DNA from: an uncultured Rickettsiales bacterium
Lineage (GTDB): Bacteria > Pseudomonadota > Alphaproteobacteria > Rickettsiales > UBA1997
Assembly: GCA_944392625.1 (NCBI GenBank)
Contig: CALXXG010000107.1
Location: 1-54,269, forward strand
Length of the DNA: 54,269 bases
Direction of reading: 5' to 3'
The translations under genes and the position numbers were made by a program. Each line of letters starts with the position of its first letter. Position 1 is the stretch's first letter. The notes beneath the pieces were generated by a model. The model did no database searches. It saw only the letters and a list, made by a program, of their open reading frames with translations, and had not been told where the DNA came from. Positions 6,553 to 54,175 of this stretch are shown here, piece by piece.

Positions 6553-9215
6553 TTATTTTTTATTAGTATTTCTTAAAAGTTTCCTTATTATTTTTTCAAA
6601 TTCCATTACAACTATTATTAGTAATGCAATAGGTATTATAATTGATAATTCTTTCCAGTCCAATGGATCTATCTTTAAAAATAAATCAAAAGCAGGAATA
6701 TAGGAAGCTATTATATGCACTAAAGTTACAATACCAATTGATATAAATAAAAAAGGATTTTTAAAGAAACTTTGTTTAAATAATGATTGAGTTTCTGACC
6801 TTGCATTGAATATCTGCATATTTTGAAATAGAATCATTAAAAATATTGTTGTGCTTCTTGCCATAACAAGGTCATTTGTTGTTTCTAAAAAGTATTTATA
6901 TACGAAGAAACATCCAAAAATCATTACGAGGGATGTAATTATAATTCTTGTTAGCATTACATGGTTAAATATTGGCTCTTTCGGGTCTCTTGGAGGCAGT
7001 CTCATTTCATTTCCCTCCTCTTTCTCCATAGCTAAAGCTATACCTTGAATACCTTCTGTAATTAAATTGATCCACAATAGCTGCAATGCAATAAAAGGCA
7101 ATGGTAATTTAAATATCATAGACAAAATAAATATTCCTATTTCAGCAAAAGCTGTTGATGTTAAGAAAAATACTAATTTTCTTATATTTGAATAGGTCAG
7201 CCTTCCTTCTTTTATACCTTTTACAATAGATGCAAAATTATCATCTGTTAAAATGATATTTGCACTTTCTCTTGCAATATCTGTTCCTTTTTTGCCCATA
7301 GCTATGCCGACATTAGCATTTTTTAAGGCTGGTGCGTCATTAACACCATCACCTGTAACGGCCACAAAGTTTCCATTTCTTCTTAAGGATTCAACTATAT
7401 CAAGTTTTTGAGTAGGTTCAACACGGGCGTAAACTTTTGCAGTTTTTGTAATCTTATCAATAGCTTCTGGACCAATTTCACTGGCTTTTTTTAAATCGGT
7501 TCCAATAACGACTTCTTTTTGATTTTTTACAAATCCCAATTCACTGGCAATGGCAAAAGCTGTTTTAGGATTATCGCCTGTAATCATAACTACATTAATG
7601 CCCGCCTGTTGACACTTTTTAACTGCATGTTTAGCTTCTTTTCTCAATGGATCCAACATTGCAACTAAAGAAAGAAATTCTAAATTCTTTAGGCTGCTGT
7701 CAAGTTCTTCTTCATTATCAGGCAAACTATCATTAATTTCACCACAGGCAACAGCTAGAACTCTTAAACCTTTCTTTGCTAAATCATCAAGTTTAGTCTT
7801 TATTTCCTGCTGAGTTTCCAAATCCATTTTACACATGTTCATTAGCACTTCAGGAGCACCCTTAACAAAAGCATATATACTGCCATCACCATCAACAAGA
7901 TTAAAGCTTGCAGAAAATTTTGTCTCTGAAGTATATGGCAACAGCTGCAGTCTTTTATATTTTTTATGTATTTGTTTTATGCTATATCCTTTTTTAGAGG
8001 CAACTTTCAAAAATGCTACGTCTACTGGATCACCATAAAATTCTCCGTCTTTTTCACTAGCCTCATTTGGCAATACAAATGTCATCATTATTTTTTTCTC
8101 AAGACTCATATTTTCAAAGTCTGTCTCTTTCTCTAATGGTAAAAAATCTTTTACTTTTTCAATCAAAGATATTATTCCATTTTTGGAGTTATAATTTCAA
8201 CAACATTTAATTCATTGATTGTCAATGTTCCAGTTTTATCTGAGGCTATAACAGTGCAGGACCCTAAGGCTTCAACTGCCACTAAATTTTTAACAATAAC
8301 ATTCTTTTTTGCCATTCTGTTCATACCAATAGCAAGACAAATGGTTATAGCTATAGGCAAGCCTTCCGGAATAGCGGCAACACCAAGACTTGCTGCCATC
8401 AGGAATGTATCGCTCCAACTTGTCCCCATTCTAAAAGCTATTATGGATAGTATAATTATCAATATTCCCATAACCATTGTTAATTTAGCCGTAAAATTTT
8501 CCATTCTTTCTACAAGAGGAGATTTTACATCGCTTTTTTGAGTAATTTTATCTGCAATTTTACCGATTTCTGTATTAAGTGCTGTTGCTTTTACTACGCC
8601 ATATCCTTGTCCTTTAATTACTATTGTGCCAGCGAATACTTCATTTAGCTTATCTTGAATAGACGCTTCCGGACCTGGAACAAAATTATAATCTTTATTA
8701 ACAGGCAATGATTCACCTGTTAGCATTGATTCATCAACTTTAAAATTTTTTGAATGTATTAATAATATATCAGCGGGTACTTTGCTTCCTTCTTTTAGAA
8801 CAACAATATCGCCAATAACTAAATCTTTTGCAGGAATTTCTATTTCATTTCCATCTCTAATAACTGTTGCTTTAACTTCAACAATTTTTTTTAATGATGA
8901 TGCGGATTTATTTGCAGAATATTCTTGAATTGTTCCTATAATTGCATTAAATGTTACAACTGCTAAAATAAAATAGCTGTCTATTGCCTCACCAACAACA
9001 AAAGATATAATAGCGGCTGCTATCAAAATATAAATTAATGGATCCGCAAATTGTTTTATAAAAATCAGAGGCAATGGAGGAATTTTTTCTTCAGGCAAAA
9101 CATTTAGTCCATATTTTTTAAGTCTATTTTGTGCTTCTTCTGTTGTTAAGCCATTTTTTGTAGTATTATAAGTTGTATAAAATTTTTCTATATTTTGCTC
9201 AGCATTCCGATCCAT
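6553..9215 (-). pseudogene. cation-translocating P-type ATPase (Ca2+/Mg2+-type), split by a frameshift
   Basis: ORF 8172..9215 carries LTGESLPV (actuator TGES) and SDKTGTLT (phosphorylation site). ORF 6553..8166 carries MITGDN and TGDGVNDAPAL. The two frames overlap across an A5 run on the coding strand (T5 at 8180-8184). Adding one A gives ...TPKNGIISLIEKVKDF... and a single ORF of about 885 aa. Confidence 0.85.
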
Positions 9216-9356
9216 TTTAAAATATAATTTGTTAATAATAAAAGAATAATGACATAGATATTTAAAATTTCAATATAAATATAAAATTAATAAAACATTG
9301 ACTTATTATTTAATAGAAAATATTTTATAATTAATACTAATAATTGTACCAATAAT

Positions 9357-11206: not shown

Positions 11207-11398
11207 ATAAATAAAAAAATATTATAATATTAAAAAAAATAATATATAGTTTTTATTATTCAAGAATCTTTTAAAAAATAATTTATATACTTTATTAAAC
11301 TATTGTTATTATTATATCCATTTTAATTAAAAAATGGTTTACTTTTAATTATTTATCTTTAAAATGTTATTGGGAGAATTGTTAATATTTATATTTTT

Positions 11399-14012: not shown

Positions 14013-14576
14013 TTGGGAGAAAATATGACAATTAATAAAATATTAACTGCAAGTTTTGTATTGGGAGCGTTAGCTTTTAGTAGCGTAAATGCTGAAGAAG
14101 TAAAAAGTAAACAAAATATAAAATCTCAAGAAAAAATAACTATAAAAAAAACTAATAAAGAAGACTGTATTTCTAAAATGTTCAAAGAAATGGACAAAGA
14201 CAATGATGGATTTGTTACTAAAAAAGAACATAAAAAGTATTTAGAAAAAAAATTTGAAGAGTTAGATACTAATAAAGATGGTGTTATTACTAAAGAAGAG
14301 TTTATAATAAAAGAAAAAATAAAAACAAATAAAAAAGGTACAAAAATAGAGTATAAGAGTGATTTAATATTCAAAGAAATTGATAAAAATGAAGATGGAA
14401 AAATTAAAAAGAAAGAATATATAAAATTTAAACAAAAAGAATTTGAAAAATTAGATAAAGACGGCGATAAAAAAGTATCTTTTGAAGAATTTAAAGCTAT
14501 AAAACAAAATAAAAGCATAAAGAATAAAGAGACATCAAAAGAAAAAGTTAAAATTAAAGAAGAGATTAAAAAATAA
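14013..14576 (+). CDS. secreted EF-hand calcium-binding protein
   Basis: Signal peptide ...AFSSVNA followed by four canonical EF loops: DKDNDGFVTKKE, DTNKDGVITKEE, DKNEDGKIKKKE, DKDGDKKVSFEE. Confidence 0.8.
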   Translation: MGENMTINKILTASFVLGALAFSSVNAEEVKSKQNIKSQEKITIKKTNKEDCISKMFKEMDKDNDGFVTKKEHKKYLEKKFEELDTNKDGVITKEEFIIKEKIKTNKKGTKIEYKSDLIFKEIDKNEDGKIKKKEYIKFKQKEFEKLDKDGDKKVSFEEFKAIKQNKSIKNKETSKEKVKIKEEIKK

Positions 14577-15215: not shown

Positions 15216-15581
15216 TTATCTATCCATCCAAACGTTTTTTAAATGTTTTATAAATAAATTTTTATGCACTAGTACAATATCAGTTCTAATGGTAAAATTT
15301 GTATATCTATTTCCATATCTACCCAAAAAAACTCTTAAGGCATTATTTATTCTATATAATTGTTTTATACTTACAACTTCGCCAATTTGACAATTGTCAT
15401 TTCTTCTAGCTTTAACCTCAATTGCAATCAGATCTTTTCCACGGGTCATTATTAAATCTATTTCCCCAAGCTTTGTTTTATAGCGATGTTTTATAAGCCA
15501 ATAACATATAAAAAGCAGTATAAAAGCTACATAATATTCGGCTAACAATCCAAAAAAATAAGATATCTTTTTCTTTAACAT
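15216..15581 (-). CDS. YraN-family (UPF0102) endonuclease-like protein
   Basis: 121 aa with GEIDLIMTRGKDLIAIEVKARRN, a PD-(D/E)xK-like core typical of YraN. Its start overlaps the parB stop. Confidence 0.75.
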   Translation of the reverse strand: MLKKKISYFFGLLAEYYVAFILLFICYWLIKHRYKTKLGEIDLIMTRGKDLIAIEVKARRNDNCQIGEVVSIKQLYRINNALRVFLGRYGNRYTNFTIRTDIVLVHKNLFIKHLKNVWMDR

Positions 15582-16477
15582 TATTGTATTTTGTTAATAA
15601 AATTTTCTAGTTCTTCAACAGAATTGTAGCTAATGACTATTTTGCCTTTATTATTTTTAGTATTAAACTGTATTTTTGATTTTAATTTAAGCTTGTTTGA
15701 TAAATTATCCTCAATCTTTTTAAAATACTCCTTATTTATCATATCAATTTGAGCTTTTTTAATTTTATTTTTTAAGCTAGCTTTTTTATTATTATAGTCT
15801 CTAACTAATTGTTCTGTTTCACGAACGCTCAAATTATGATCTATAATCATGTGGGCTATTTCTACGGCTTTATCACAATTAATTAAAGCTCTTGCATGTC
15901 CCATATCAATTTCTTTTTTGTAAAGCATTTCCTTAACTTCATCAGGCAAATCAAGAAGTCTAACTATGTTTGCTACATGGCTTCTGCTTTTTCCAACAAA
16001 GTTTGCTACATCTTGTTGGGTATAATTAAAATCTTTAATTAATGAATAGTAAGCTTCTGCTTCTTCCATAACTGATAGATCGCTTCTTTGAATATTTTCA
16101 ATAATTGCTAAGCTTAATGCATCTTTATCGCTAAATTCTTTAATTATTGCTGGTACTACTTCTAATCCAATTAATTTTGCGGCTCTGTATCTTCTTTCTC
16201 CTGCAATAATTTCAAACATTGATAAGTCTTCAGCTAATTTTCTAACTACAATTGGTTGCAGAATTCCATATTCTTTTATAGATAAAGATAAATCTTTTAA
16301 TTCATCCTCATTAAAGTATTTTCTTGGTTGAAATCTATTTGGTTTTAGCAAATCTATTTTTAATTTTTGAACTTTATCAGCATTTAAATCAATAGCCATT
16401 AAATCGCTATTTAGATTTAATTTTTTTTCTCCTAATAGTGAACTTAATCCTCTTCCCAATTTATTTGTAGTGGTCAT
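15581..16477 (-). CDS. parB: chromosome partitioning protein ParB/Spo0J
   Basis: N-terminal KLGRGLSSLLG, ParB box IAGERRYRAAK, and an HTH QQDVANFVGKSRSHVANIVRLL. Confidence 0.92.
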   Translation of the reverse strand: MTTTNKLGRGLSSLLGEKKLNLNSDLMAIDLNADKVQKLKIDLLKPNRFQPRKYFNEDELKDLSLSIKEYGILQPIVVRKLAEDLSMFEIIAGERRYRAAKLIGLEVVPAIIKEFSDKDALSLAIIENIQRSDLSVMEEAEAYYSLIKDFNYTQQDVANFVGKSRSHVANIVRLLDLPDEVKEMLYKKEIDMGHARALINCDKAVEIAHMIIDHNLSVRETEQLVRDYNNKKASLKNKIKKAQIDMINKEYFKKIEDNLSNKLKLKSKIQFNTKNNKGKIVISYNSVEELENFINKIQ

Positions 16478-19557: not shown

Positions 19558-19558
19558 T

Positions 19559-19572
19559 GTTTCATGTGAAAC
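19559..19572. promoter_or_regulatory. palindrome GTTTCA-N2-TGAAAC (copy 1 of 2)
   Basis: gtttcatgtgaaac. A near-identical palindrome gtttcatatgaaac lies at 37837-37850. Both sit just downstream of a plus-strand transporter gene. Confidence 0.25.
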
Positions 19573-19616
19573 TTTATATATAAATATTAAAATTATTATT
19601 TAAATAATAATTAGAA

Positions 19617-22348: not shown

Positions 22349-25183
22349 ATGAAAAAAGAAAATAAGGATCCTTCTAATGAAATTAAACTTGATACAGGAA
22401 TCGGTATTTTTAAAAAAATATCTATTTCTATTTCGGTTATAGCATTAATTATATTATTTGGCTTACTTTCATTGCAGGCTATTATAAAACTTGATAAATA
22501 TAAAGAAACAATAAATAGCGAAATAGCAAGTTTAATGCAAACTGAACCAAATTCCAATATAGTTCCATCGGCATCAATTAACGGAAATATTTCATTTAAA
22601 TCATTCTTAGTACCGCATATAACTATAGATAATATAATTGGCAAAGATTTAAATGGACAAAATTATTTATTAAACTTTGATATACAAAAATTACGACTGT
22701 TTCTTTCACCAAAAGATTTAATAGCAAAAAAATTTATAATTACAAAAATTGAAATAATAAATGGTAATTTTAACTTTCAAGAATTTAATGAGTCGCAAAT
22801 AAACATAATAAAAAATATAATAGATAAACATTATGGAAAATTTATAAACAAAGATAGAAATATAGTAATAATTTTAAAAAATAATAGCATAAAAATAAAT
22901 GGAACAGATTATACTAGAGACTTTTCGCAAATAAATTTAACAGGAACATATAATAAAAATAAGCTATTGCTAAATGGTTCTACTCTATCAAATAAGCAAT
23001 CACTAAATATTGATATTTCTACAACTAAAAAACAAGAAAATTTTATTAATAAAATTTATTTAAATTCTCAAGCATTTAGAATCAATATGGATTTCAACTT
23101 TGATAGTTCTAATAAAAAAGCCTCTGGAAAAGCAACATTTAATATAATAAATCCGCAAATATTTGCCAGAACAATATTTAGTCCACAAAGTGTATTATTT
23201 AAAAGGATCATAGACAATTCAAATTTAGATATAGTATCAGAATTTAATTTTGAAAATAATATATTAAATATTTCTAAATTTAATATGAAAGGCAAAAATG
23301 TAATAGGAGATGCAACTGCTAAATTTGACTTTAATGATAATTCACAAAGCGATATTAAAATAAATATGGCATCTATAAATTTAGATAATTTATTTATCAA
23401 AAATATGTCTGGTAATATTGACAAAGAAATAAATGAAAGAAATATATCTATATTTTCAGGAGTTCAAAGACAAATAATTAAACAAAATAGAAATATTAGT
23501 TTTATTGAAAAAATTTTGGAAAAAAATCCAATAAACTTTGATATAAATATAAAAAAGTTAAAATTAAATCAAAGAGATGTTTCGAATACAATTATACAAT
23601 TTATATACTCAACAAAGGCTGAAAAAACGTTTGATTTTAAAAAAGTATCAAGCGAACTACCTGGAAAAACAAAGGTTTTAATTGAAGAAAATAATGAGAA
23701 TGACTTTCTTCAAATAAACGGTGAAAATCTACAAGAATTCTTTAATTTCATAAGAAATATTAATATTGAAAACAATAAATCAAATCAACAAGAAACAAAA
23801 GAAGAAAATTTTAAATTTAGTGGCAATATACAAATTAAAAATAATATGTTATTTATAAATAATGCATCATACGAAAGCCCAAAAATAACGACAAAAAATA
23901 AACTAGAAATTAAATTTGATTCTGGTATTTCTTATTTAGCTGTTGATACTATTATTGATAATTTAAACTTAGATAATTTTATAACTGACAATAGCAATAC
24001 TTCTACCCAAAATGTTTCCTATATAAAATCTTTTAAGACTCAAATGTTGTCTTTAAATAATTTTACATTAAATTCATATTTTAAATTTAAAATAAATAAT
24101 ATAAAGTATAAAGATTTTATAGATGACAACTATCAATTTATAATAAAAACATCGCAAGGACTTTTAGATATATATAATATAAATATAAACAACAAAATTA
24201 CTGGAAATATATCATTCAATATATCTGCATCAAAACCATTTATAAACGTCAATCTAAATCTATCTAATATTAGTTTAAATAAAAATATAGATATAAATAA
24301 AATACTGTTTAATTTACCAATGTTTGATGGAATTTTTGGCAGTATAAATATATTGGCTAATAACCTAGACTTTAAAAATTCTAAAATAGAAAATATTAAT
24401 TTTATGTCAAATATTAATAATGGTGCAATAAATATAAACCAATTTGATATAAAAGGATTTGGCGGACAATGTAAAATAAGTGGATTTTTAAATTTATTGT
24501 ATACTAAAAAATTAAATTTAACATTTAATGGATGTACAGCTAAAATTTCAGATATTTTGTATCCATTTTCTGGTTTAAAAAATATAAATGGTTTAATCGG
24601 ATTTAGTTCTGTACTATATGCAGAAGGTTTTAATTTAGAAAATTTTATAAATAGCTATTTGTTAAAAGCTAATATAATAGGCAGTGGAATAGTCATTGAC
24701 AATTTTGGATTGCAAACATTAAGCTCTAACCTATTTGAGATACATTCTAATACAGAATTATTAAATAGGTTAAATGCAGAAGATACATTATATAATTCTA
24801 ATGAGAAAACTTTTTTTGAACAAATAACAAAAGGAAATATACAATATTCTAAAAAAAGTGGTGGGCGGTTTGATTTTGATATTACAAGGCCATTAATAAA
24901 TGGAAAACTAACTGGTAATTTTAAGTTATTTTCCAACTATGTTGAATTAGACAAAGTGAATGCAAACTTTACATTATTAAGCGGTACATTACAAACAACA
25001 ATACCATTAACAATATTAATTGCAATGTCCGGTATAACTCCAAATAATATAGCAGTTGCATCAAATTTAAATCAAATAAATTCATATATACAATCAGTAA
25101 AAGAACAATATAAAGTTGCTACACAAAACAGCAATAATTTAAATAATACAGAACAATCTATACAAATAAATACAAATAATTAA
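22349..25183 (+). CDS. AsmA-family outer-membrane biogenesis protein (Asn-rich)
   Basis: 944 aa with a single N-terminal TM (ISISISVIALIILFGLLSLQAII), then a long beta-rich Asn/Ile/Lys repeat-like body, which is the AsmA-like architecture. The family call rests on architecture, not on a sharp motif. Confidence 0.5.
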   Translation: MKKENKDPSNEIKLDTGIGIFKKISISISVIALIILFGLLSLQAIIKLDKYKETINSEIASLMQTEPNSNIVPSASINGNISFKSFLVPHITIDNIIGKDLNGQNYLLNFDIQKLRLFLSPKDLIAKKFIITKIEIINGNFNFQEFNESQINIIKNIIDKHYGKFINKDRNIVIILKNNSIKINGTDYTRDFSQINLTGTYNKNKLLLNGSTLSNKQSLNIDISTTKKQENFINKIYLNSQAFRINMDFNFDSSNKKASGKATFNIINPQIFARTIFSPQSVLFKRIIDNSNLDIVSEFNFENNILNISKFNMKGKNVIGDATAKFDFNDNSQSDIKINMASINLDNLFIKNMSGNIDKEINERNISIFSGVQRQIIKQNRNISFIEKILEKNPINFDINIKKLKLNQRDVSNTIIQFIYSTKAEKTFDFKKVSSELPGKTKVLIEENNENDFLQINGENLQEFFNFIRNINIENNKSNQQETKEENFKFSGNIQIKNNMLFINNASYESPKITTKNKLEIKFDSGISYLAVDTIIDNLNLDNFITDNSNTSTQNVSYIKSFKTQMLSLNNFTLNSYFKFKINNIKYKDFIDDNYQFIIKTSQGLLDIYNININNKITGNISFNISASKPFINVNLNLSNISLNKNIDINKILFNLPMFDGIFGSINILANNLDFKNSKIENINFMSNINNGAININQFDIKGFGGQCKISGFLNLLYTKKLNLTFNGCTAKISDILYPFSGLKNINGLIGFSSVLYAEGFNLENFINSYLLKANIIGSGIVIDNFGLQTLSSNLFEIHSNTELLNRLNAEDTLYNSNEKTFFEQITKGNIQYSKKSGGRFDFDITRPLINGKLTGNFKLFSNYVELDKVNANFTLLSGTLQTTIPLTILIAMSGITPNNIAVASNLNQINSYIQSVKEQYKVATQNSNNLNNTEQSIQINTNN

Positions 25184-26197: not shown

Positions 26198-27384
<1,187 letters not shown>

Positions 27385-37829: not shown

Positions 37830-37836
37830 TGATAAT

Positions 37837-37850
37837 GTTTCATATGAAAC
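37837..37850. promoter_or_regulatory. palindrome GTTTCA-N2-TGAAAC (copy 2 of 2)
   Basis: gtttcatatgaaac, which extends to the 16-bp palindrome tgtttcatatgaaaca at 37836-37851. It lies 8 nt after the mlaE stop. Confidence 0.25.
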
Positions 37851-37936
37851 AAAAAAATATTATAAATAATTAAAAAAGTATGGCATTTTAATATTTTATT
37901 TTTATAATAAATTTAAATCAATTTTTTTTGAAATAA

Positions 37937-39155: not shown

Positions 39156-39235
39156 ATTTATAATTTTATATATAAAATAAAAGATATATTTATTTGAAAA
39201 TTAAACTTATAAAATAATAACTTTAATATAAAAAA

Positions 39236-39910
39236 CTACACACCAGCCTATCTGACAGTTCTTTATTCTCCTTCAATAAAATCAATGCTTTCATTAAAGT
39301 TTAACAGCTCATGCCAGAGTGCAGTCTTCCCCACGAATGCAATGAGTATTTGAAAACAAGCATTACAGAATAAACAACACAAACTATATATTATCAAATA
39401 TAGTGTTTACACTAATATTTGACGGTTCATACCCGTAGCTTACCCAACTCAAAGGATGGAACAACAAGCCCTAAATATCGGAAAATATAAAAAATAATTT
39501 TATTTATTTTTTATTTGACGACTTATAGGTGATGTTTGTAGAATGAATAATGAGGGCTAGATGTTGGAAAATAAAAAGAGGTTTACTTATTTTTATTTAA
39601 CAACTCATGTCTGTAGCTTGATGAAAGAAATGGAGTATTTTTACAAGAATAAATCACACAATAATAAAAACAAAATGAACTGAGAAAATAAGATGGAAAA
39701 TAATGTGTTTGCATAATCATTTTAACTTGTTATTCCGCAAACTACGCCCATAAGTCGTCCAATTCAAGAAAGCTTGATTGTCAGACATTTATGGCTTGTT
39801 TTTGTCCCATCACATTTTGCCATAACAAAGTGTAAAACTACGCCGTATTGCCTCATTGCTAAAGTTAAACTTAACTACAAGTATAAGTGTGGGTTTCAAT
39901 GGATACAAAA
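39236..39910. repeat. mosaic GC-enriched intergenic element R2 (paralog of R1 and R3)
   Basis: Contents in order:
- Degenerate M1 (acaccagcctatctgacag, 39240-39258).
- Three forward module-A copies (about 39322-39370, 39434-39460, 39613-39640).
- Module B (39633-39675).
- Hairpin tcaag-aaag-cttga (39764-39777).
- Box cagacatttatgg (39782-39794).
- Module C (39811-39880).
The track ORFs 39774..39968 and 39856..40074 look spurious. Confidence 0.85.
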
Positions 39911-39913
39911 ATC

Positions 39914-39937
39914 GGAAGGCTTTTTCAGCAGCCTTCC
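39914..39937 (-). terminator. rho-independent terminator of the outer-membrane protein gene
   Basis: On the minus strand, ggaaggct-gctgaaaa-agccttcc is followed by gatttttgt. Confidence 0.65.
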
Positions 39938-39973
39938 TTGTAAAATTACAAAGGTATATAAAATTTAAAATAA

Positions 39974-40766: not shown

Positions 40767-42272
40767 TTAGAAATTTAAATCAATAAATGTTGTTCTTCCA
40801 TTGATAATATTAATTGTTTTTTCAAAAATTTTTTTATTATCTGAAAAAATTTTTAATATATATTCACCATTTTTAAGACGTAAACCACCCATTTGTATAT
40901 CAGATGCTAAAGTTGTCCAATATCTTATATCAGCCCTTGAAGTTTCATTTATTGCTTTTGAAGAAGCCGCAAATGCTGCAATAGCCCCTAATTTAGCAAA
41001 AGTATTATCTTGAGAATATAAAGCATACGCACTTGAAATTGCTGCTATATATTTTGCAGTAATTCTAGATACTATAGCAGCTTGAATAATAGCTGCCTTA
41101 TCATCTAAAGTTTTTTTTGCTATATCAGATAATGGCTCTATTAATGTTAAATCAGTAGAAGCTATTTCTTCATTATTCTTATTATAGACAACTGCTGTAA
41201 ATTTTCTTATTTCATTTACATTTTTTATCTCTGGAATTTCTATTAAAATATATGGTATTCCATTTTTTGATGATAATATTGTAGTTGCAAATATAAACAT
41301 ATCTTCTCCACCAGTTCCAAACAATACTAAAGGTAATGGTATTTCTAGATTTTTTACACTTTTTGGGGCTATTAAATTATCTTTTAAAAGAATAACAACA
41401 TTATCTTTTTTATATCTTTTAAGATTTTTACTACTTCTTGCTATAAATTTTTGTAAATCTTTTGAATACTTAGTTTCAACTATATAATCCTTTTTTAATT
41501 GTTGTAGATTTAAATTTGGCAATTTTTTAAAATCTTCATTAAACTTTTTACTTTTAGCATTAAAAATAGGATACATGTTATAATTTTGTAATAACAATTT
41601 ATCTGCATCTTTATATAATTGTAACGATATTTGTCTATCAGTAGAATCGTTAAATTCACTATGAATAAATGCACCCCATATTTTAGCCATCATATCATTT
41701 TTATATATATTTTCTCCAGCAGTTTCATTTTGCATATTTTTTAAAAGAGAGTCCCATTCTATAACTGAAGATCTAGCATAATTTAAATGAAACAGTCTTT
41801 CTGAATTTGTTAACTCTTTTTTTTGAATTATATTTCCTTTTTTATCATTATATTCTTCATAAAATCCCTGTTGGAAAATATTATAATTAATTAATGATAT
41901 ATAAAACCTTATTAAAGATCTTTCATATAGTTCTCCATAATAATCATCTAAATTAGCATCCCATCCGCTTTTTATTTTATTTTTTATGCTAATAGTATAA
42001 AGGTCATCGCTAATTTTTTTTGCATTTTCAAAATACTGTAATGCTTGATAATAATCACCCCTTAAATAATATACTGTTCCTGTTTCAAGATTTTTTAATA
42101 GTTTAGAATTTTCTTGTGGATAAAAATCTTTATTTTGTGTATTTTTTAATGCTGCATCATAATTTTTATTTTTTATATTTTGAGCTAATACTCCTGATAT
42201 CTCTCTATTTTTCATTGCTCCACTACAAGATATTAGAGAAGTTAATAATATTATATATAAAAATTTTTTCAT
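40767..42272 (-). CDS. putative lipoprotein with TPR-like N-terminal region
   Basis: Lipobox LLTSLISCSG, then YYLRGDYYQALQYFENAKKI (TPR-like). 501 aa. No confident family assignment. Confidence 0.6.
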   Translation of the reverse strand: MKKFLYIILLTSLISCSGAMKNREISGVLAQNIKNKNYDAALKNTQNKDFYPQENSKLLKNLETGTVYYLRGDYYQALQYFENAKKISDDLYTISIKNKIKSGWDANLDDYYGELYERSLIRFYISLINYNIFQQGFYEEYNDKKGNIIQKKELTNSERLFHLNYARSSVIEWDSLLKNMQNETAGENIYKNDMMAKIWGAFIHSEFNDSTDRQISLQLYKDADKLLLQNYNMYPIFNAKSKKFNEDFKKLPNLNLQQLKKDYIVETKYSKDLQKFIARSSKNLKRYKKDNVVILLKDNLIAPKSVKNLEIPLPLVLFGTGGEDMFIFATTILSSKNGIPYILIEIPEIKNVNEIRKFTAVVYNKNNEEIASTDLTLIEPLSDIAKKTLDDKAAIIQAAIVSRITAKYIAAISSAYALYSQDNTFAKLGAIAAFAASSKAINETSRADIRYWTTLASDIQMGGLRLKNGEYILKIFSDNKKIFEKTINIINGRTTFIDLNF

Positions 42273-42356
42273 TATTTATTGAAAAATCATTTACTAAACA
42301 AAAATCTAAATAATATTAAAAAAATTTCAATACTTATTTAAATCTAAAATAATATT

Positions 42357-42587
42357 TTGTTAATAATATTGTTAATAACTATGTTAATATCTTGTTTATA
42401 ATTCTGTTAATAAAAAGTTATTAACAGATTATATAATTTATTAACAGAATTATAAACATATTTGTTAATGAGAAAAATTTTTATTTTTTTATTAACAACT
42501 TGTTAATAACTATATTAAGATATTATTTTTAATGGATAATTTAAAAAAATTTATGTTAATAAAACTGTTAATAAATTTTTATTAACA
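42357..42587. repeat. iteron-like array of the 9-mer TGTTAATAA / TTATTAACA
   Basis: Forward copies start at 42357, 42369, 42381, 42404, 42500, 42553 and 42565. Variants are at 42392 (tgtttataa) and 42462 (tgttaatga). Reverse copies are at 42417, 42437, 42488 and 42578. The first five are spaced 11-12 bp apart. Palindromes ctgttaataa-N4-ttattaacag lie at 42403-42426 and 42564-42587. Confidence 0.85.
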
Positions 42588-42637
42588 GTTTTACAATTAT
42601 AATAACAATAATAATAAATAATAAAATATTAAATATT

Positions 42638-43558
42638 TTATTTTGTACGAACTCTATAGTTTTCTTTTTTTATTTGATTATTTTTTTGATTTTCAAGTTT
42701 TTCAATTTCTTTTAACTTATTTTTGTTAAATAAAAACTTATTCATTTCTTGATTGTTATTTGAAACAGATATAGACGACAGTCCATCAAGTTTTAAATTA
42801 TTTATAGACTGTACTTTATTTTGTTTTAATAAGCTAAAAGAATTTATTTTGTTATTAAAATTTTCAATGTTTTTACCTTTTGAAAAAATTTTATTAAGTT
42901 CTAATTTTAAATTATTAATTGCAAAAACTTTTGTATTTTGTAATATTTTCTTATCATCATTTAAAATAACTTTTTCTTCAGTTTTTAATTTAAAATCATC
43001 TTTTTGTTTAATTTCTAGAGATCTCTTATCATCAATATAGTTTATTTTATCTTTTTTATTTTTTCTTATTTTAAAGAAAGATAAAAATTTTGACTTTTTA
43101 TTTTCTTTTTGCTTTGATTTTACAGGAAATAGATCTAGTAATGTCATTTGCAAAATACCTTTTAAAGTTTTATTGTTATCTTTCTTTTGTTTTAATTTTT
43201 TTTGATTTTTCTTTAAATTTTTTATAATAGATCTTTTAAATTCTTTAGATATTTGTGAATTGCATGGTAATTGGCCAGTTCTTTTTATTTTATCTTTAAT
43301 TGATAATGTTTTATCATTAACGATTGAAATCACATTTAGTATTTCTTTTGAAATTTCGTTTGATTGTTCTTTTTTATTTGCATTTATTATTTTTTTATCT
43401 TCTTTTTCCTTTCTTCTTGTAATTGTTTCATTTTTTAATGTATTTTCATTAAGCTTTATTGAAATTATATGCTCTAATATATTATTAGATTGCTGATCAT
43501 ATATTTTATTTTGCGTATTGTATCTTTCAATAGATTGAATTACTCTGAGATGTTCCAT
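42638..43558 (-). CDS. hypothetical Lys/Asn-rich protein
   Basis: 306-aa highly basic low-complexity ORF with no TM or signal peptide. An internal repeat INNLKL occurs twice. No family recognised. Confidence 0.45.
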   Translation of the reverse strand: MEHLRVIQSIERYNTQNKIYDQQSNNILEHIISIKLNENTLKNETITRRKEKEDKKIINANKKEQSNEISKEILNVISIVNDKTLSIKDKIKRTGQLPCNSQISKEFKRSIIKNLKKNQKKLKQKKDNNKTLKGILQMTLLDLFPVKSKQKENKKSKFLSFFKIRKNKKDKINYIDDKRSLEIKQKDDFKLKTEEKVILNDDKKILQNTKVFAINNLKLELNKIFSKGKNIENFNNKINSFSLLKQNKVQSINNLKLDGLSSISVSNNNQEMNKFLFNKNKLKEIEKLENQKNNQIKKENYRVRTK

Positions 43559-48895: not shown

Positions 48896-49396
48896 TTATT
48901 TAACTTTGTATTTATATTTTCCTTTAATTCTTCCATCTGGAGTTTTTTCATTAAATTTATATTTGTATTGAAATTTATCCATGGCTTCATTATATTGATT
49001 CTCACTAACTTTTCCAGTTCCGTTTTTATCCATTTGTGCAAACTCTAATTTTCTTTTTAATTTATATTCTTTCTTTGTAACTTTTCCATCTTTATTTAAA
49101 TCCCATTGTTCAAAAATTGTCTCTTTGTATTTAGGATCGCAATTTTCTTCTTTTTTACATTTTCCAACAAAGTTATCTTTTGAAACAAAATCTTCATCCA
49201 TTTCATCTATTAACTTCCATTGTCTATCGTGATATTTAACATAAACTTTTTCTGTTATATATCCTTTTCCATCTTTATCTAGTTCTTTAAATTTTACTCT
49301 ATATGCTTCTGGCATTTGTTTTTTAGCTTCTTTTGCATTTACATTAAATGCCATGAGTAGAGATAAAATACCAAATATAAAAAATTTTCTTTTCAT
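48896..49396 (-). CDS. secreted EF-hand calcium-binding protein (second paralog)
   Basis: Signal peptide MKRKFFIFGILSLLMAFNVNA. EF loops are DKDGKGYITEKV, DLNKDGKVTKKE and DKNGTGKVSENQ. Start taken at the ATG at 49396 (the track ORF starts at a TTG at 49411). Confidence 0.8.
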   Translation of the reverse strand: MKRKFFIFGILSLLMAFNVNAKEAKKQMPEAYRVKFKELDKDGKGYITEKVYVKYHDRQWKLIDEMDEDFVSKDNFVGKCKKEENCDPKYKETIFEQWDLNKDGKVTKKEYKLKRKLEFAQMDKNGTGKVSENQYNEAMDKFQYKYKFNEKTPDGRIKGKYKYKVK

Positions 49397-49660
49397 GTTT
49401 CTACCATTCAAAATTAATATTAAATAATTGTAATTAATTCCTTACGGAAAATATTTACAGTTTAAATATTATTTTATTATATCTTAAAAGTAAAGAAATA
49501 AATTAATTTTCTATTTTAAGTTGTAAAATTATGAGATTAACTTTATTTTCAATAAGCAATTTAGTATTTTAAAAAATTATCTTTAATATATTTTATTATT
49601 AATGTATTGATTTTTTCAAAATAAATGTTAATATTTTTAATGATAAAATTAATGCATTGT

Positions 49661-52791: not shown

Positions 52792-53970
52792 CTAATCCAT
52801 TAGCTTTTTTAACATATCAACTAAATCAAGTTTTTCCCAGCTAAAACCACCATCATTTTCTGGCTTTCTGCCGAAATGTCCATAGGCAGCACTTCTTTTA
52901 TAGATTGGTTTTGCAAGCCCTAGTCTCTCTCTGATTTTTTTAGGTCTTAAATCAACTAATTCTCTTAATTTTTCTGCAATTTTTTCTTCATCCACTTTGT
53001 TTGTGCCATAACAATTTACATAAAATGATAAAGGCTCAGCTACACCAATTGCATAAGATACTTGAATTAAACATTGGTCTGCAAGTCCGCTTGCAACAAC
53101 ATTTTTTGCTAAATATCTTGTAATATAGGCACCGCTTCTATCAACTTTGCTTGGATCTTTGCCCGAGAATGCACCGCCGCCATGAGGCGCATATCCGCCA
53201 TAGGTATCAACTATAATTTTTCTGCCAGTCAAACCAGTATCGCCGTCTGGACCGCCTATCACAAATCTTCCAGTTGGATTAATTAAAATATTTTTATTAT
53301 CTTTTGGCATCCAACCTTTTGGCAATGTTTTTTCAATATATGGAACTATTAATTTTCTAACATCATCCACTGTTAAATTTTCTCTATGCTGTATTGAAAC
53401 TAAAACTTTTTCTGCTCCAACAGGTTTACCATCAACATACTTCAAAGTTATTTGTGCTTTTGCATCTGGTCCTAAATCTTTTAATTCACCTTTTTTAATA
53501 GCTTGCATTATGTTATACAAAATCTTATGAGAATAGTATATTGCACTAGGCATATAGTCTTCTGTTTCATTGCAGGCATATCCGAACATAAGTCCTTGAT
53601 CTCCAGCACCTTCATTTTCTTCATCTCTTCCAACATCAACACCCATAGCTATATCAGCCGATTGACAGTGAATAAAGTTATCAATTTTTACAGTTTTCCA
53701 ATCAAACCCTTCCTGTTCATAGCCAATTTCCTTAATAGTTTCTCTAATAATTTTTTCAATTTCTTCATTAGAAAGACACGTTCCATTAGATGTTCTTACC
53801 TCTCCGCCCACTATAACTCTATTTGTAGTCGCAAATGTTTCACATGCAACTTTTGACTTTGGATCATATTTTAAATAGGCATCAAGTATTGCATCTGATA
53901 TTTGATCACACACCTTATCCGGATGTCCTTCAGATACAGACTCACTTGTAAAAAAATAAGTATTTTTCAT
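52792..53970 (-). CDS. metK: S-adenosylmethionine synthetase
   Basis: [53 protein letters not shown]; full length, 392 aa. Confidence 0.97.
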
Positions 53971-54100
53971 ATTGTACTCAATTTATTAATAAATAATTGC
54001 ATTGAGCTAAAAGGATTAATATAAATGATTGTTTATCAGTAGTCCGCTTTAGCTGTTTGTTTAAAGTGTTCGCAATTTGTAAATCAACACTATTGTTAAT
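53971..54100 (-). promoter_or_regulatory. metK 5' leader with conserved-looking pairing segments (possible riboswitch/attenuator, unverified)
   Basis: The minus-strand leader reads guguugauuuacaaauugcgaacac (5-bp stem guguu/aacac), then ...cagcuaaagcgg..., which can pair with the downstream ccuuuuagcu. GAUUU / AUUGC / AAAGC elements recall my memory of the SAM-II/SAM-V cores, but the spacing to the AUG is long. Confidence 0.2.
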
Positions 54101-54175
54101 AATAAAATAATTTTTTTAATATTCAAGCAATAATTAATATTTTAGAGATTGTCAAAAAAAGATAGCTTTTTAAAA

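What the first reader, a model, noticed from the sequence alone, without database searches (positions are those of the whole stretch)
42357..42587. Dense iteron-like array: at least 13 copies of TGTTAATAA/TTATTAACA in 231 bp, with two 24-bp palindromes
The 365-bp spacer lies between the Lys-rich ORF (stop 42638) and the lipoprotein gene (start 42272).

- It holds ten perfect 9-mers. Forward copies start at 42357, 42369, 42404, 42500, 42553 and 42565. Reverse copies start at 42417, 42437, 42488 and 42578.
- There are three one-off variants, at 42381, 42392 and 42462.
- The first five units form a head-to-tail series with an 11-12 bp period.
- Two sites are the same palindrome CTGTTAATAA-N4-TTATTAACAG (42403-42426 and 42564-42587). 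One is tail-to-tail: TTATTAACA-act-TGTTAATAA (42488-42508).
- Single copies also occur in other 5' regions: 9230-9238 upstream of the P-type ATPase, 54094-54102 upstream of metK, and the variant tgttaatat at 11380 upstream of tolC.

My rough composition-based expectation is only a handful of copies in the entire 54 kb, so ten in 231 bp is a strong signal.

Possible interpretations:
- An operator cluster for a dimeric regulator or nucleoid protein controlling the lipoprotein gene.
- Iterons of a replication or partition site. The motif is a 7/9 match to the DnaA box (TTATTAACA versus TTATCCACA), and ssb lies 1 kb away.
- A binding platform for the adjacent, very basic Lys-rich protein.
Basis: partly seen in the sequence, partly recalled or inferred. 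Interest (0 to 1): 0.65.

Follow-up and report, generated by a model that had tools for sequence, protein, structure and literature searches.

The report
Chromosome replication origin of gut Rickettsiales
The dense 9-mer array is most likely the chromosome replication origin (oriC) of an uncultured, very AT-rich Rickettsiales-like gut bacterium: a cluster of variant DnaA boxes (TTATTAACA) ending in a conserved unwinding module, so it is an ordinary kind of element that had not been marked in this lineage.

Summary
There are 10 perfect and 4 one-mismatch TTATTAACA/TGTTAATAA 9-mers in 42358-42587. Simulations with the spacer's own composition give about 0.1. Independent assemblies reproduce the array unchanged.

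The best explanation is a DnaA-box cluster forming oriC.
- The same arrays occur once per MAG in at least 11 Rickettsiales species. In five they lie between bolA and hemE, the classical alphaproteobacterial origin position.
- The tandem pair TTATTAACA-N3-TTATTAACA lies 65-141 bp from dnaA in 12 unrelated AT-rich genomes. TTATTAACA is already published as a putative Mycoplasma DnaA box.
- Box variants change mainly at positions 3 and 5, the degenerate positions of TT(A/T)TNCACA.
- All Rickettsiales arrays share an end module laid out like the Bacillus subtilis basal unwinding system. In the window it is 42566-42616.
- parB and parS-like sites lie nearby.

The array does not follow the lipoprotein gene: five of seven orthologues lack it. 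CtrA spacing does not fit. GC skew is uninformative, and DnaA binding and the rest of the genome were not tested. Verdict: a new member of a known kind, of modest interest.

The parts
42358..42587 (.). DnaA-box cluster, the core of the proposed oriC. It holds 14 boxes within one mismatch of TTATTAACA. Boxes that read TGTTAATAA on the + strand start at 42358, 42370, 42382*, 42393*, 42405, 42463*, 42501, 42554 and 42566. Boxes that read TTATTAACA on the + strand start at 42418, 42438, 42450*, 42489 and 42579. An asterisk marks one mismatch.
   Evidence: Searches give the boxes. One search gives local significance. One search shows the same box, spacing and variant spectrum in 12 Rickettsiales arrays. 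One search shows the array unchanged in independent assemblies.
42566..42595 (+). End module, the proposed platform for the unwinding system. It consists of an inverted box (42566-42574), 4 nt, a perfect box (42579-42587), and a degenerate second box, AGTTTTACA (42587-42595, 5 of 9 matches), with its ACA 8 bp after the first.
   Evidence: Eleven Rickettsiales loci share TGTTAATAA-N4-(T/A)(T/A)ATTAACA-N1-ATTAACAG. The layout matches B. subtilis DnaA-box 6/7, TTATCCACA-A-ATCCACAGG (PMC8287927 supplement).
42599..42637 (+). Candidate DnaA-trio and AT-rich unwinding region. It reads ATA ATA ACA ATA ATA ATA (42599-42616), with a middle T on this strand and so a middle A on the complement, followed by pure A/T sequence up to the stop codon of the Lys-rich ORF.
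   Evidence: The block (C)TAATAATAACAATAAT is conserved at the same place in L005, L034, L056 and L130, although the flanking gene differs. The window copy lacks the G/C-rich spacer and the first CTA trio that relatives have.
42273..42357 (.). AT-rich left flank between the lipoprotein start codon and the first box. It presumably holds the lipoprotein promoter. It has no unwinding-type module.
   Evidence: Promoter-like sites are not enriched, 11 found against 9.5 expected.
40767..42272 (-). Flanking gene for a lipoprotein-like protein of 501 aa with a weak TPR match, transcribed away from the array. It is a neighbour, not a functional part of the element.
   Evidence: Five of seven orthologues have no array.
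42638..43558 (-). Flanking gene X, a Lys-rich, fast-evolving ORF of 306 aa whose stop codon abuts the candidate unwinding region. Whether it belongs to the element is unknown.
   Evidence: No Pfam or NCBIfam family. The word-indexed search found no homologue. BLASTP shows weak similarity to the array neighbours in L005 (1e-15) and L034 (2e-6); L056 links only through L034.
37836..37851 (.). parS-like palindrome TGTTTCATATGAAACA, intergenic between mlaE and rsfS, 4.5 kb from the array. It is a marker of the origin-proximal region.
19558..19573 (.). parS-like site TGTTTCATGTGAAACT, intergenic, 23 kb from the array.
15581..16477 (-). parB, the chromosome partition protein that binds parS. It is a marker of the origin-proximal region.
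   Evidence: ParB_N 8e-36, HTH_ParB 3e-34, ParB_C 1e-9.

Best explanation
The array is the chromosomal replication origin (oriC) of an uncultured, roughly 25% GC Rickettsiales-like bacterium from animal guts. The 9-mers are DnaA boxes whose consensus in this lineage is TTATTAACA(G), two positions away from TTATCCACA.

**Inferred mechanism**
1. DnaA-ATP occupies the 14 boxes. These are mostly 12 bp apart as direct repeats, or arranged as head-to-head pairs with a 4-bp gap.
2. At the right-hand end, an inverted box, a perfect box and an overlapping weak box (42566-42595) orient a DnaA filament onto the adjacent trinucleotide-repeat, pure A/T stretch (42599-42637).
3. That stretch opens, and the helicase is loaded there.

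**Shown here:** the sequence architecture, its conservation, its single occurrence per MAG among the recorded hits, and its positions next to hemE or dnaA in other genomes.

**Inferred only:** DnaA binding, the site of unwinding, and origin firing.

In this genome and its close relatives the origin has been separated from hemE by rearrangement.
For: 1. **Density.** There are 14 boxes in 230 bp against about 0.1 expected locally.

2. **Distribution in genomes.** A GTDB-wide scan for TGTTAATAA-N3-TGTTAATAA returned 119 loci.
   - Arrays of at least 4 perfect boxes per 400 bp occur in 11 Rickettsiales-type MAGs. Each MAG appears once.

3. **Position next to hemE.** In L061, L064, L082, L087 and L125 the array fills the bolA-hemE spacer (Pfam URO-D 1e-110 and BolA).
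   - hemE is the conserved boundary gene of oriC in Caulobacter, Rickettsia, Wolbachia, Ehrlichia and Anaplasma (PMC1914354).

4. **Position next to dnaA.** Thirteen of the 119 loci carry dnaA. In 12 of them the box pair lies 65-141 bp from the start or end of dnaA.
   - These include Metamycoplasma orale, Mycoplasma anseris, Bacilli and Clostridia MAGs, Saccharibacteria and Moraniibacteriota.
   - TTATTAACA has been reported as a putative DnaA box upstream of dnaA in M. hominis, M. mobile and M. arthritidis (PMC2751442).

5. **Enrichment and variant spectrum.** Across 12 Rickettsiales arrays there are 95 perfect boxes in 3.2 kb, against 12 in the 145 kb outside them.
   - One-mismatch variants inside arrays change mainly at positions 3 and 5, the degenerate positions of TT(A/T)TNCACA. 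Position 7 never changes.
   - Variants include TTATCAACA and TTATTCACA. A canonical TTATCCACA lies inside the L061 array.
   - Chance look-alikes outside arrays differ mostly at position 8.

6. **Shared end module.** All arrays share TGTTAATAA-N4-box-N1-ATTAACAG, then a spacer of 3-4 nt, often G/C-rich, then CTA/ATA trinucleotides.
   - This is the layout of the B. subtilis basal unwinding system (definition).
   - The module is kept whether the next gene is hemE, gene X or aroK.

7. **Origin-proximal markers.** parB and three parS-like sites lie in the window. Similar sites lie 1.7-7 kb from the arrays in L005, L034, L056 and L130. Only 1 was found in 303 kb of unrelated AT-rich loci.
Against: - GC skew gives no clear switch at the array. 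In the window it follows gene orientation, and G/C counts at four-fold degenerate sites are too small. Across seven loci the right-minus-left difference is positive in four and near zero in three.
- hemE and dnaA are not in the window. The dnaA gene of this lineage was never seen.
- Only 54 kb of this genome is available, so a second cluster elsewhere cannot be excluded.
- The window's own end module is the most degenerate of the set. Its second box matches 5 of 9, and it has no G/C-rich spacer and no CTA trio.
- In DNA that is about 90% A/T, a run of NTN triplets is easy to find by chance.
- TTATTAACA changes position 6 of the box, which is fixed as C in the TT(A/T)TNCACA consensus quoted in 10.1101/866236. 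That preprint classes it as non-consensus, with binding strength unknown.
Confidence: 0.84

Rival explanations
1. The array is a DnaA-box cluster that is not the origin. It would be a DnaA-titrating or DnaA-inactivating locus, like E. coli datA or the B. subtilis DnaA-box clusters, with the true oriC elsewhere in the genome.
For: - The boxes look like DnaA boxes.
- The window has no hemE, no dnaA and no GC-skew switch at the array.
- Only 54 kb of the genome was seen.
Against: - The window's array aligns by its end module with the arrays that occupy the bolA-hemE origin position in related MAGs. They are therefore the same element.
- Each MAG yielded one array only.
- The array has a module of tandem boxes plus trinucleotide repeats plus an A/T stretch, which titration sites do not need.
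- parB and parS-like sites lie nearby.
Confidence: 0.07
2. The 9-mers are half-sites for the alphaproteobacterial cell-cycle regulator CtrA, or another OmpR/PhoB-type response regulator, which binds direct repeats about one helical turn apart. The array would then be a regulatory platform, at the origin or at a promoter.
For: - The box contains TTAAC.
- Where boxes are 11 bp apart they spell TTAA-N7-TTAAC, for example in L087.
- CtrA sites occur in Caulobacter and Rickettsiales origins (PMC1914354).
Against: - The dominant spacing is 12 bp (42 pairs) against 11 bp (10 pairs), which gives N8 rather than N7.
- The window's array holds a single TTAA-N7-TTAA, and the pattern is not enriched in the window: 7 found against 24.7 expected.
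- Thirteen variants change position 5 and five change position 6, which breaks the TTAA core but keeps likeness to a DnaA box.
- The same tandem pair flanks dnaA in Firmicutes, Mollicutes and candidate-phyla bacteria. I take these groups to lack CtrA from general knowledge; this was not tested.
Confidence: 0.04
3. The array is an operator array for a dimeric transcription factor or a nucleoid protein that controls the adjacent lipoprotein gene. One candidate for the binding protein is the product of the adjacent Lys-rich gene X.
For: - The array lies 85-315 bp upstream of the lipoprotein start codon.
- The same arrangement occurs in L005 and L007.
- Weak homologues of X flank the array in L005, L034 and L056.
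Against: - Five of seven lipoprotein orthologues have no box upstream.
- Arrays sit next to unrelated genes: hemE and bolA, an hflK-like gene, aroK and priA, typA, galU and infC.
- Arrays next to hemE, and the L130 array, have no X neighbour.
- Promoter-like sites are not enriched.
- Copies outside the array are at chance level, so there is no regulon.
Confidence: 0.03
4. The array is iterons or a centromere of a plasmid, phage or other mobile replicon integrated in the chromosome.
For: - The element is a dense array of short repeats in both orientations.
- Assemblies break there.
Against: - No rep, partition or integrase gene lies next to the array.
- Flanking genes are chromosomal housekeeping genes.
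- The units are 9-mers of DnaA-box type, not 17-22-bp iterons.
- The array is present once in every related MAG, in five of them in the classical position next to hemE.
- The true parS-like sites in the window have a different sequence.
Confidence: 0.02

Closest known systems
Alphaproteobacterial oriC next to hemE (Caulobacter Cori; predicted origins of Rickettsia, Wolbachia, Ehrlichia and Anaplasma; PMC1914354)
   Same: - An intergenic, AT-rich region of 250-400 bp with clustered DnaA boxes.
- In related MAGs (L061, L064, L082, L087, L125) the array lies directly upstream of hemE, as in those genera.
- Origins in that group are also known to have changed their second boundary gene through rearrangement.
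   Different: - In the window and its close relatives hemE is no longer adjacent.
- The box consensus is TTATTAACA.
- Copy number is much higher: 14 boxes, against the 3-5 reported for those origins.
- There is no enrichment of TTAA-N7-TTAA CtrA sites.
- The other boundary gene in relatives is bolA, not COG1806 or COG1253.
Basal unwinding system of Bacillus subtilis oriC (DnaA-box 6/7 plus DnaA-trios; PMC6669920, PMC8287927)
   Same: - Two same-direction boxes with their ACA ends 8 bp apart.
- Then a short spacer, G/C-rich in several relatives.
- Then trinucleotide repeats with a fixed middle base. In relatives the first is usually CTA, which is 3'-GAT-5' on the complement.
- Then A/T-rich DNA.
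   Different: - The boxes are TTATTAACA-type.
- An inverted box 4 bp upstream is also conserved.
- In the window the spacer is ATTA and the first trios are ATA, so the match is loose.
- No functional test exists.
Putative Mycoplasma oriC boxes (M. hominis, M. mobile and M. arthritidis; TTATTAACA upstream of dnaA; PMC2751442)
   Same: - The 9-mer is identical, in very AT-rich genomes.
- The GTDB scan confirms tandem pairs beside dnaA in Metamycoplasma orale and Mycoplasma anseris.
   Different: - Those genomes have one or two boxes next to dnaA.
- Here there are 14, in an alphaproteobacterial lineage and not next to dnaA.
E. coli datA and B. subtilis DnaA-box clusters (DnaA-titrating sites outside the origin)
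   Same: A cluster of DnaA boxes away from dnaA.
   Different: Those sites lack an unwinding module and coexist with a separate oriC. Here the array shares its end module with the arrays that lie next to hemE in relatives, which marks it as the same element, and it is the only array found per MAG.

Membership tests
Bacterial DnaA-dependent chromosomal origin (oriC) | A cluster of several DnaA boxes in one intergenic region | tested here: met
   There are 14 boxes within one mismatch of TTATTAACA in 230 bp. Each is 2 mismatches from TTATCCACA, which is within the limit used by the published origin-search program.
Bacterial DnaA-dependent chromosomal origin (oriC) | The repeated 9-mer behaves as a DnaA box: it lies beside dnaA or at known origin positions elsewhere, and it tolerates change at the known degenerate positions | tested here: met
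   In 12 of 13 loci that carry dnaA, the box pair lies 65-141 bp from dnaA. Variants concentrate at positions 3 and 5, and position 7 never changes. The box is published for Mycoplasma. Binding itself was not tested.
Bacterial DnaA-dependent chromosomal origin (oriC) | An adjacent AT-rich unwinding element with tandem boxes and DnaA-trios (basal unwinding system) | tested here: inconclusive
   The module is clear and conserved in relatives. The window's copy keeps the box layout and the ATA-repeat block, but it lacks the G/C-rich spacer and the CTA trio. In DNA that is about 90% A/T, trinucleotide patterns are weak evidence.
Bacterial DnaA-dependent chromosomal origin (oriC) | Position at the GC-skew switch or the replication-associated depth peak | tested here: inconclusive
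   Skew follows gene orientation. There are too few G/C at four-fold sites, and flank comparisons across seven loci are mixed. A depth gradient cannot be measured over 54 kb.
Bacterial DnaA-dependent chromosomal origin (oriC) | One copy per chromosome | tested here: inconclusive
   There is one array in the window and one locus per MAG among the 119 hits.
Bacterial DnaA-dependent chromosomal origin (oriC) | DnaA binding and origin activity | not testable with these tools
   This needs EMSA or DAP-seq, an unwinding assay, or marker-frequency analysis.
Alphaproteobacterial origin next to hemE | hemE as a boundary gene | tested here: not met
   The window has no hemE (tblastn). The feature is met in related MAGs L061, L064, L082, L087 and L125.
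Alphaproteobacterial origin next to hemE | CtrA sites (TTAA-N7-TTAA) within the origin | tested here: not met
   There is one site in the array and no enrichment in the window. The dominant box spacing gives N8.
Plasmid-type iteron origin | Direct repeats of 17-22 bp beside a rep gene | tested here: not met
   The units are 9-mers in both orientations, and no rep gene lies within the annotated neighbourhood.
parS centromere | The 16-bp palindrome TGTTNCACGTGAAACA | tested here: not met
   The array does not match it. Separate parS-like sites exist at 19558, 37836 and 53836.

The most novel reading that the evidence does not exclude
The origin of this gut clade may have acquired a lineage-specific partner. 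Gene X is a fast-evolving, Lys-rich protein with no known family. Its 3' end runs into the candidate unwinding region in the window, L005, L034 and L056.

X could be an origin-binding or initiation-regulating protein. Alternatively, its transcription into the A/T stretch could help open the origin. That would replace the role ascribed, from memory and not checked here, to the hemE promoter in Caulobacter after hemE was separated from the origin.

A related possibility is that DnaA of this lineage has shifted its specificity to TTATTAACAG and assembles on unusually regular arrays with 12-bp spacing.
Probability: 0.12. Interest if true: 0.55.

Novelty: new member of a known kind. Interest (0 to 1): 0.33.

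Why it matters
- **An anchor for these genomes.** It marks the replication origin for a group of uncultured, gut-associated Rickettsiales-like bacteria known only from fragmented MAGs. This helps with orienting assemblies, estimating growth rate from read depth, and explaining why assemblies break at this locus.
- **A wider DnaA-box variant.** TTATTAACA, previously noted only as a putative Mycoplasma box, recurs at dnaA-linked or hemE-linked origins in several phyla of AT-rich bacteria.
- **A conserved unwinding layout.** An end module resembling the Bacillus basal unwinding system is conserved in an alphaproteobacterial lineage.
- **No new kind of element.** None of this changes the textbook picture of oriC.

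Tried and rejected
- **GC skew.** I tried a sliding window, four-fold degenerate sites per gene, and left-versus-right flanks in seven array loci. All were dominated by gene orientation or small counts. The apparent local sign change at 37-49 kb was chosen after seeing the data and does not persist further out.
- **Lipoprotein operator.** Rejected after fetching seven orthologous loci.
- **PhoB/PhoP-type Pho boxes** (TTAACA direct repeats). I considered these from memory and dropped them, because the arrays track origin positions rather than phosphate genes, and because 12-bp spacing and inverted pairs dominate.
- **CtrA sites.** The pattern count is not enriched.
- **Structured RNA or terminator in the spacer.** There was no Rfam match even at E = 1 and no terminator-like site.
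- **Gene X.** No Pfam or NCBIfam family, and the word-indexed search found no homologue.
- **Literature search for the 9-mer alone.** This returned mostly primers and barcodes. Adding 'DnaA' found the Mycoplasma and phage T5 mentions.
- **Arrays that are not origins.** Not every array found by the scan is an origin. L115 looks like an in-frame coding repeat. L069 and L076 (Bacteroidales-labelled contigs) were not resolved.
- **dnaA of this lineage.** It was not found in any locus held.

Full report
**1. The observation**

The region 42273-42637 is a 365-bp spacer with 10.7% GC. It lies between a lipoprotein-like gene (40767-42272, minus strand) and a Lys-rich ORF, here called X (42638-43558, minus strand).

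Box counts:
- A pattern search finds 15 perfect TGTTAATAA/TTATTAACA in the window, against 4.3 expected. Ten of them lie in 42358-42587.
- With one mismatch allowed there are 14 boxes in 230 bp. No other 300-bp stretch of the window has more than five.
- Simulations with the spacer's own composition give 0.1 perfect copies on average and never more than 3.

The array is not an assembly artefact. A 49-kb contig from an independent chicken-gut run spans it without change. That contig does carry SNPs in the neighbouring gene. A second run gives an exact 472-bp contig across the array.

**2. The organism**

- Homologues of the lipoprotein are named only 'Rickettsiales bacterium' MAG proteins.
- The contigs that carry them come from human and animal gut metagenomes, and the runs that hold the window itself are chicken-gut metagenomes.
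- They encode a VirB4-type secretion ATPase, among other genes.
- The window has about 25% GC.

**3. The array does not belong to the lipoprotein gene**

I examined seven lipoprotein orthologues, counting the window, with 57-100% identity to it.
- Only the window and L005/L007 have the array upstream.
- L002, L008, L130, L131 and L132 have none within 400 bp.
- In L130, a full array with 12 perfect boxes lies 5 kb away, between aroK and priA.

**4. Where else the motif occurs**

A scan of one genome per GTDB species for TGTTAATAA-N3-TGTTAATAA returned 119 loci.

*Rickettsiales-type MAGs.* Eleven of them carry arrays with at least four perfect boxes per 400 bp: L013, L034, L036, L056, L061, L064, L082, L087, L121, L122 and L125. 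Each MAG appears once.
- In L061, L064, L082, L087 and L125 the array fills the spacer between bolA and hemE. In L121 it starts at bolA and runs off the end of the held locus (Pfam).
- hemE is the conserved boundary gene of the origin in Caulobacter, Rickettsia, Wolbachia, Ehrlichia and Anaplasma (PMC1914354).

*Other phyla.* Thirteen of the 119 loci contain dnaA. In 12 of them the box pair lies 65-141 bp from the start or end of dnaA.
- These include Metamycoplasma orale, Mycoplasma anseris, several Bacilli and Clostridia MAGs, a Saccharibacteria MAG and a Moraniibacteriota MAG.
- A random site would fall that close to dnaA only a few times in ten thousand. This estimate is mine and was not computed with a tool.
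- TTATTAACA has been described as a putative DnaA box upstream of dnaA in M. hominis, M. mobile and M. arthritidis (PMC2751442).
- It is listed as a non-consensus DnaA-type box in T5-like phages (10.1101/866236).

**5. Properties of the boxes**

Pooling 12 Rickettsiales arrays gives 95 perfect and 65 one-mismatch boxes in 3.2 kb. The 145 kb outside the arrays holds 12 perfect boxes.

| Feature | Inside arrays | Outside arrays |
|---|---|---|
| One-mismatch variants, most frequent positions | 3 and 5 (13 each), then 1 (9), 2 and 8 (8 each) | 8 (92 of 252), as expected when a C must arise by chance in AT-rich DNA |
| Position 7 | never changes | changes in 28 of 252 |

- Positions 3 and 5 are the degenerate positions of the classical consensus TT(A/T)TNCACA.
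- Variants include TTATCAACA and TTATTCACA, and a canonical TTATCCACA lies within the L061 array.
- Spacing between neighbouring boxes is mostly 12 bp for direct repeats (42 pairs). Head-to-head pairs at 13 bp start-to-start account for 15 pairs, and direct repeats at 11 bp for 10 pairs.
- This spacing gives TTAA-N8-TTAA, not the CtrA pattern TTAA-N7-TTAA. The CtrA pattern occurs once in the window's array and is not enriched in the window.

**6. A conserved end module**

All Rickettsiales arrays end on one side with the same arrangement (anchored listing, alignment, L130):
1. an inverted box;
2. 4 nt;
3. a good box;
4. an overlapping second box whose ACA lies 8 bp (sometimes 9) after the first;
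5. a G;
6. 2-4 nt, G/C-rich in several relatives;
7. A/T trinucleotides that begin with CTA in most relatives.

This is the layout of the B. subtilis basal unwinding system, TTATCCACA-A-ATCCACAGG-CC-CTA CTA TTA CTT CTA CTA (oligonucleotides in the PMC8287927 supplement; definition).

In the gut clade, the block (C)TAATAATAACAATAAT is kept in the window, L005, L034, L056 and L130. The next gene is X in four of these and aroK in L130. In the hemE-linked arrays, the module faces hemE. It is therefore part of the array and not a feature of a neighbouring gene.

In the window the module is 42566-42595, followed by ATA ATA ACA ATA ATA ATA (42599-42616) and pure A/T sequence up to the stop codon of X. 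This is the most degenerate copy in the set.

**7. Origin-proximal markers**

- The window encodes ParB (15581-16477).
- It holds three parS-like sites at 19558, 37836 and 53836. Against the parS pattern there were 9 matches where 0.95 were expected.
- Similar sites lie 1.7-7 kb from the arrays in L005, L034, L056 and L130. Only one was found in 303 kb of unrelated AT-rich loci.
- From general knowledge, parS sites cluster near origins in most bacteria.

**8. What remains open**

- GC skew is uninformative here.
- dnaA of this lineage was not seen.
- The rest of the genome is unknown.
- Binding and unwinding are inferred, not shown.
- A role like that of datA, as a DnaA-box cluster outside the origin, is the main rival. 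It is disfavoured because the window's array shares its end module with the hemE-linked arrays, and because one array was found per MAG.

**9. Verdict**

The array is best read as oriC, built from TTATTAACA-type DnaA boxes and displaced from hemE by rearrangement. This is a new member of a known kind.

The least ordinary points are:
- the very regular, high-copy array;
- the recurrence of this box variant at origins in several AT-rich phyla;
- the unexplained linkage of the fast-evolving gene X to the unwinding side of the origin in the gut clade.

Noticed in passing
window 15581-16477 (parB); 19558-19573, 37836-37851, 53836-53851 (parS-like sites): A chromosomal parB gene and three parS-like palindromes (TGTTTCAYRTGAAACA type) lie in the window. 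No parA gene is adjacent to parB. Similar sites lie near the arrays in L005, L034, L056 and L130.
   Followed up: partly
window 54028-54100 (minus strand), upstream of metK (52792-53970): This is a probable SAM-II (alpha) riboswitch, RF00521. It scores 33.5 bits, just under the gathering score of 36, with E = 4.6e-6. The 185-bp leader is about 99% identical to that of L002, although the neighbouring lipoprotein in these two genomes is only 85% identical.
   Followed up: partly
window 6553-8166 and 8172-9215 (minus strand): A P-type cation ATPase is split into two adjacent ORFs of 537 and 347 aa. The relative L008 has one gene of 891 aa. This is a likely frameshift or stop codon, meaning a pseudogene or a sequencing error.
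   Followed up: no
window 26258-26728 and 26821-27384 (plus strand): An aldo/keto reductase is split into two ORFs that match the N- and C-terminal parts of the Pfam model. It is probably a disrupted gene.
   Followed up: no
window 14013-14576 (plus strand) and 48896-49411 (minus strand): Two small proteins have strong matches to the EF-hand calcium-binding domain. From general knowledge, such matches are unusual for bacteria and may point to a lifestyle associated with a eukaryotic host.
   Followed up: no
window 39156-39973: This stretch of about 820 bp has no ORF of 50 aa or more that looks like a gene and no Rfam match at gathering thresholds. Its function is unknown.
   Followed up: no
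window 42638-43558 (gene X); L005 8780-9481; L034 4804-5559; L056 5386-6141: This is a fast-evolving Lys-rich protein with no family. Its only conserved patch reads roughly I-x-x-I-x-D-x-x-L-S-I-K-D-K-I-K-R. In all four genomes its 3' end faces the unwinding side of the array.
   Followed up: partly
L001 (starts inside the array), L006, and contigs of run X2 ending at window 42404 and 42620: Short-read assemblies often break inside the array. This may explain why the origin is missing from some MAGs of this clade, for example the genome behind L002.
   Followed up: partly
L069 3887-4045, L076 10-260, L115 2033-2160: The scan also found TTATTAACA arrays in contigs labelled Bacteroidales, Rikenella and Methanovirga. 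L115 looks like an in-frame coding repeat. L069 and L076 may be origins or misbinned contigs.
   Followed up: no
window, whole: TTAA-N7-TTAA occurs 7 times, against 24.7 expected from dinucleotide shuffles. This depletion may simply reflect avoidance of in-frame TAA in coding DNA.
   Followed up: no
window 22349-25183 (plus strand): A 944-aa ORF has no Pfam or NCBIfam match.
   Followed up: no
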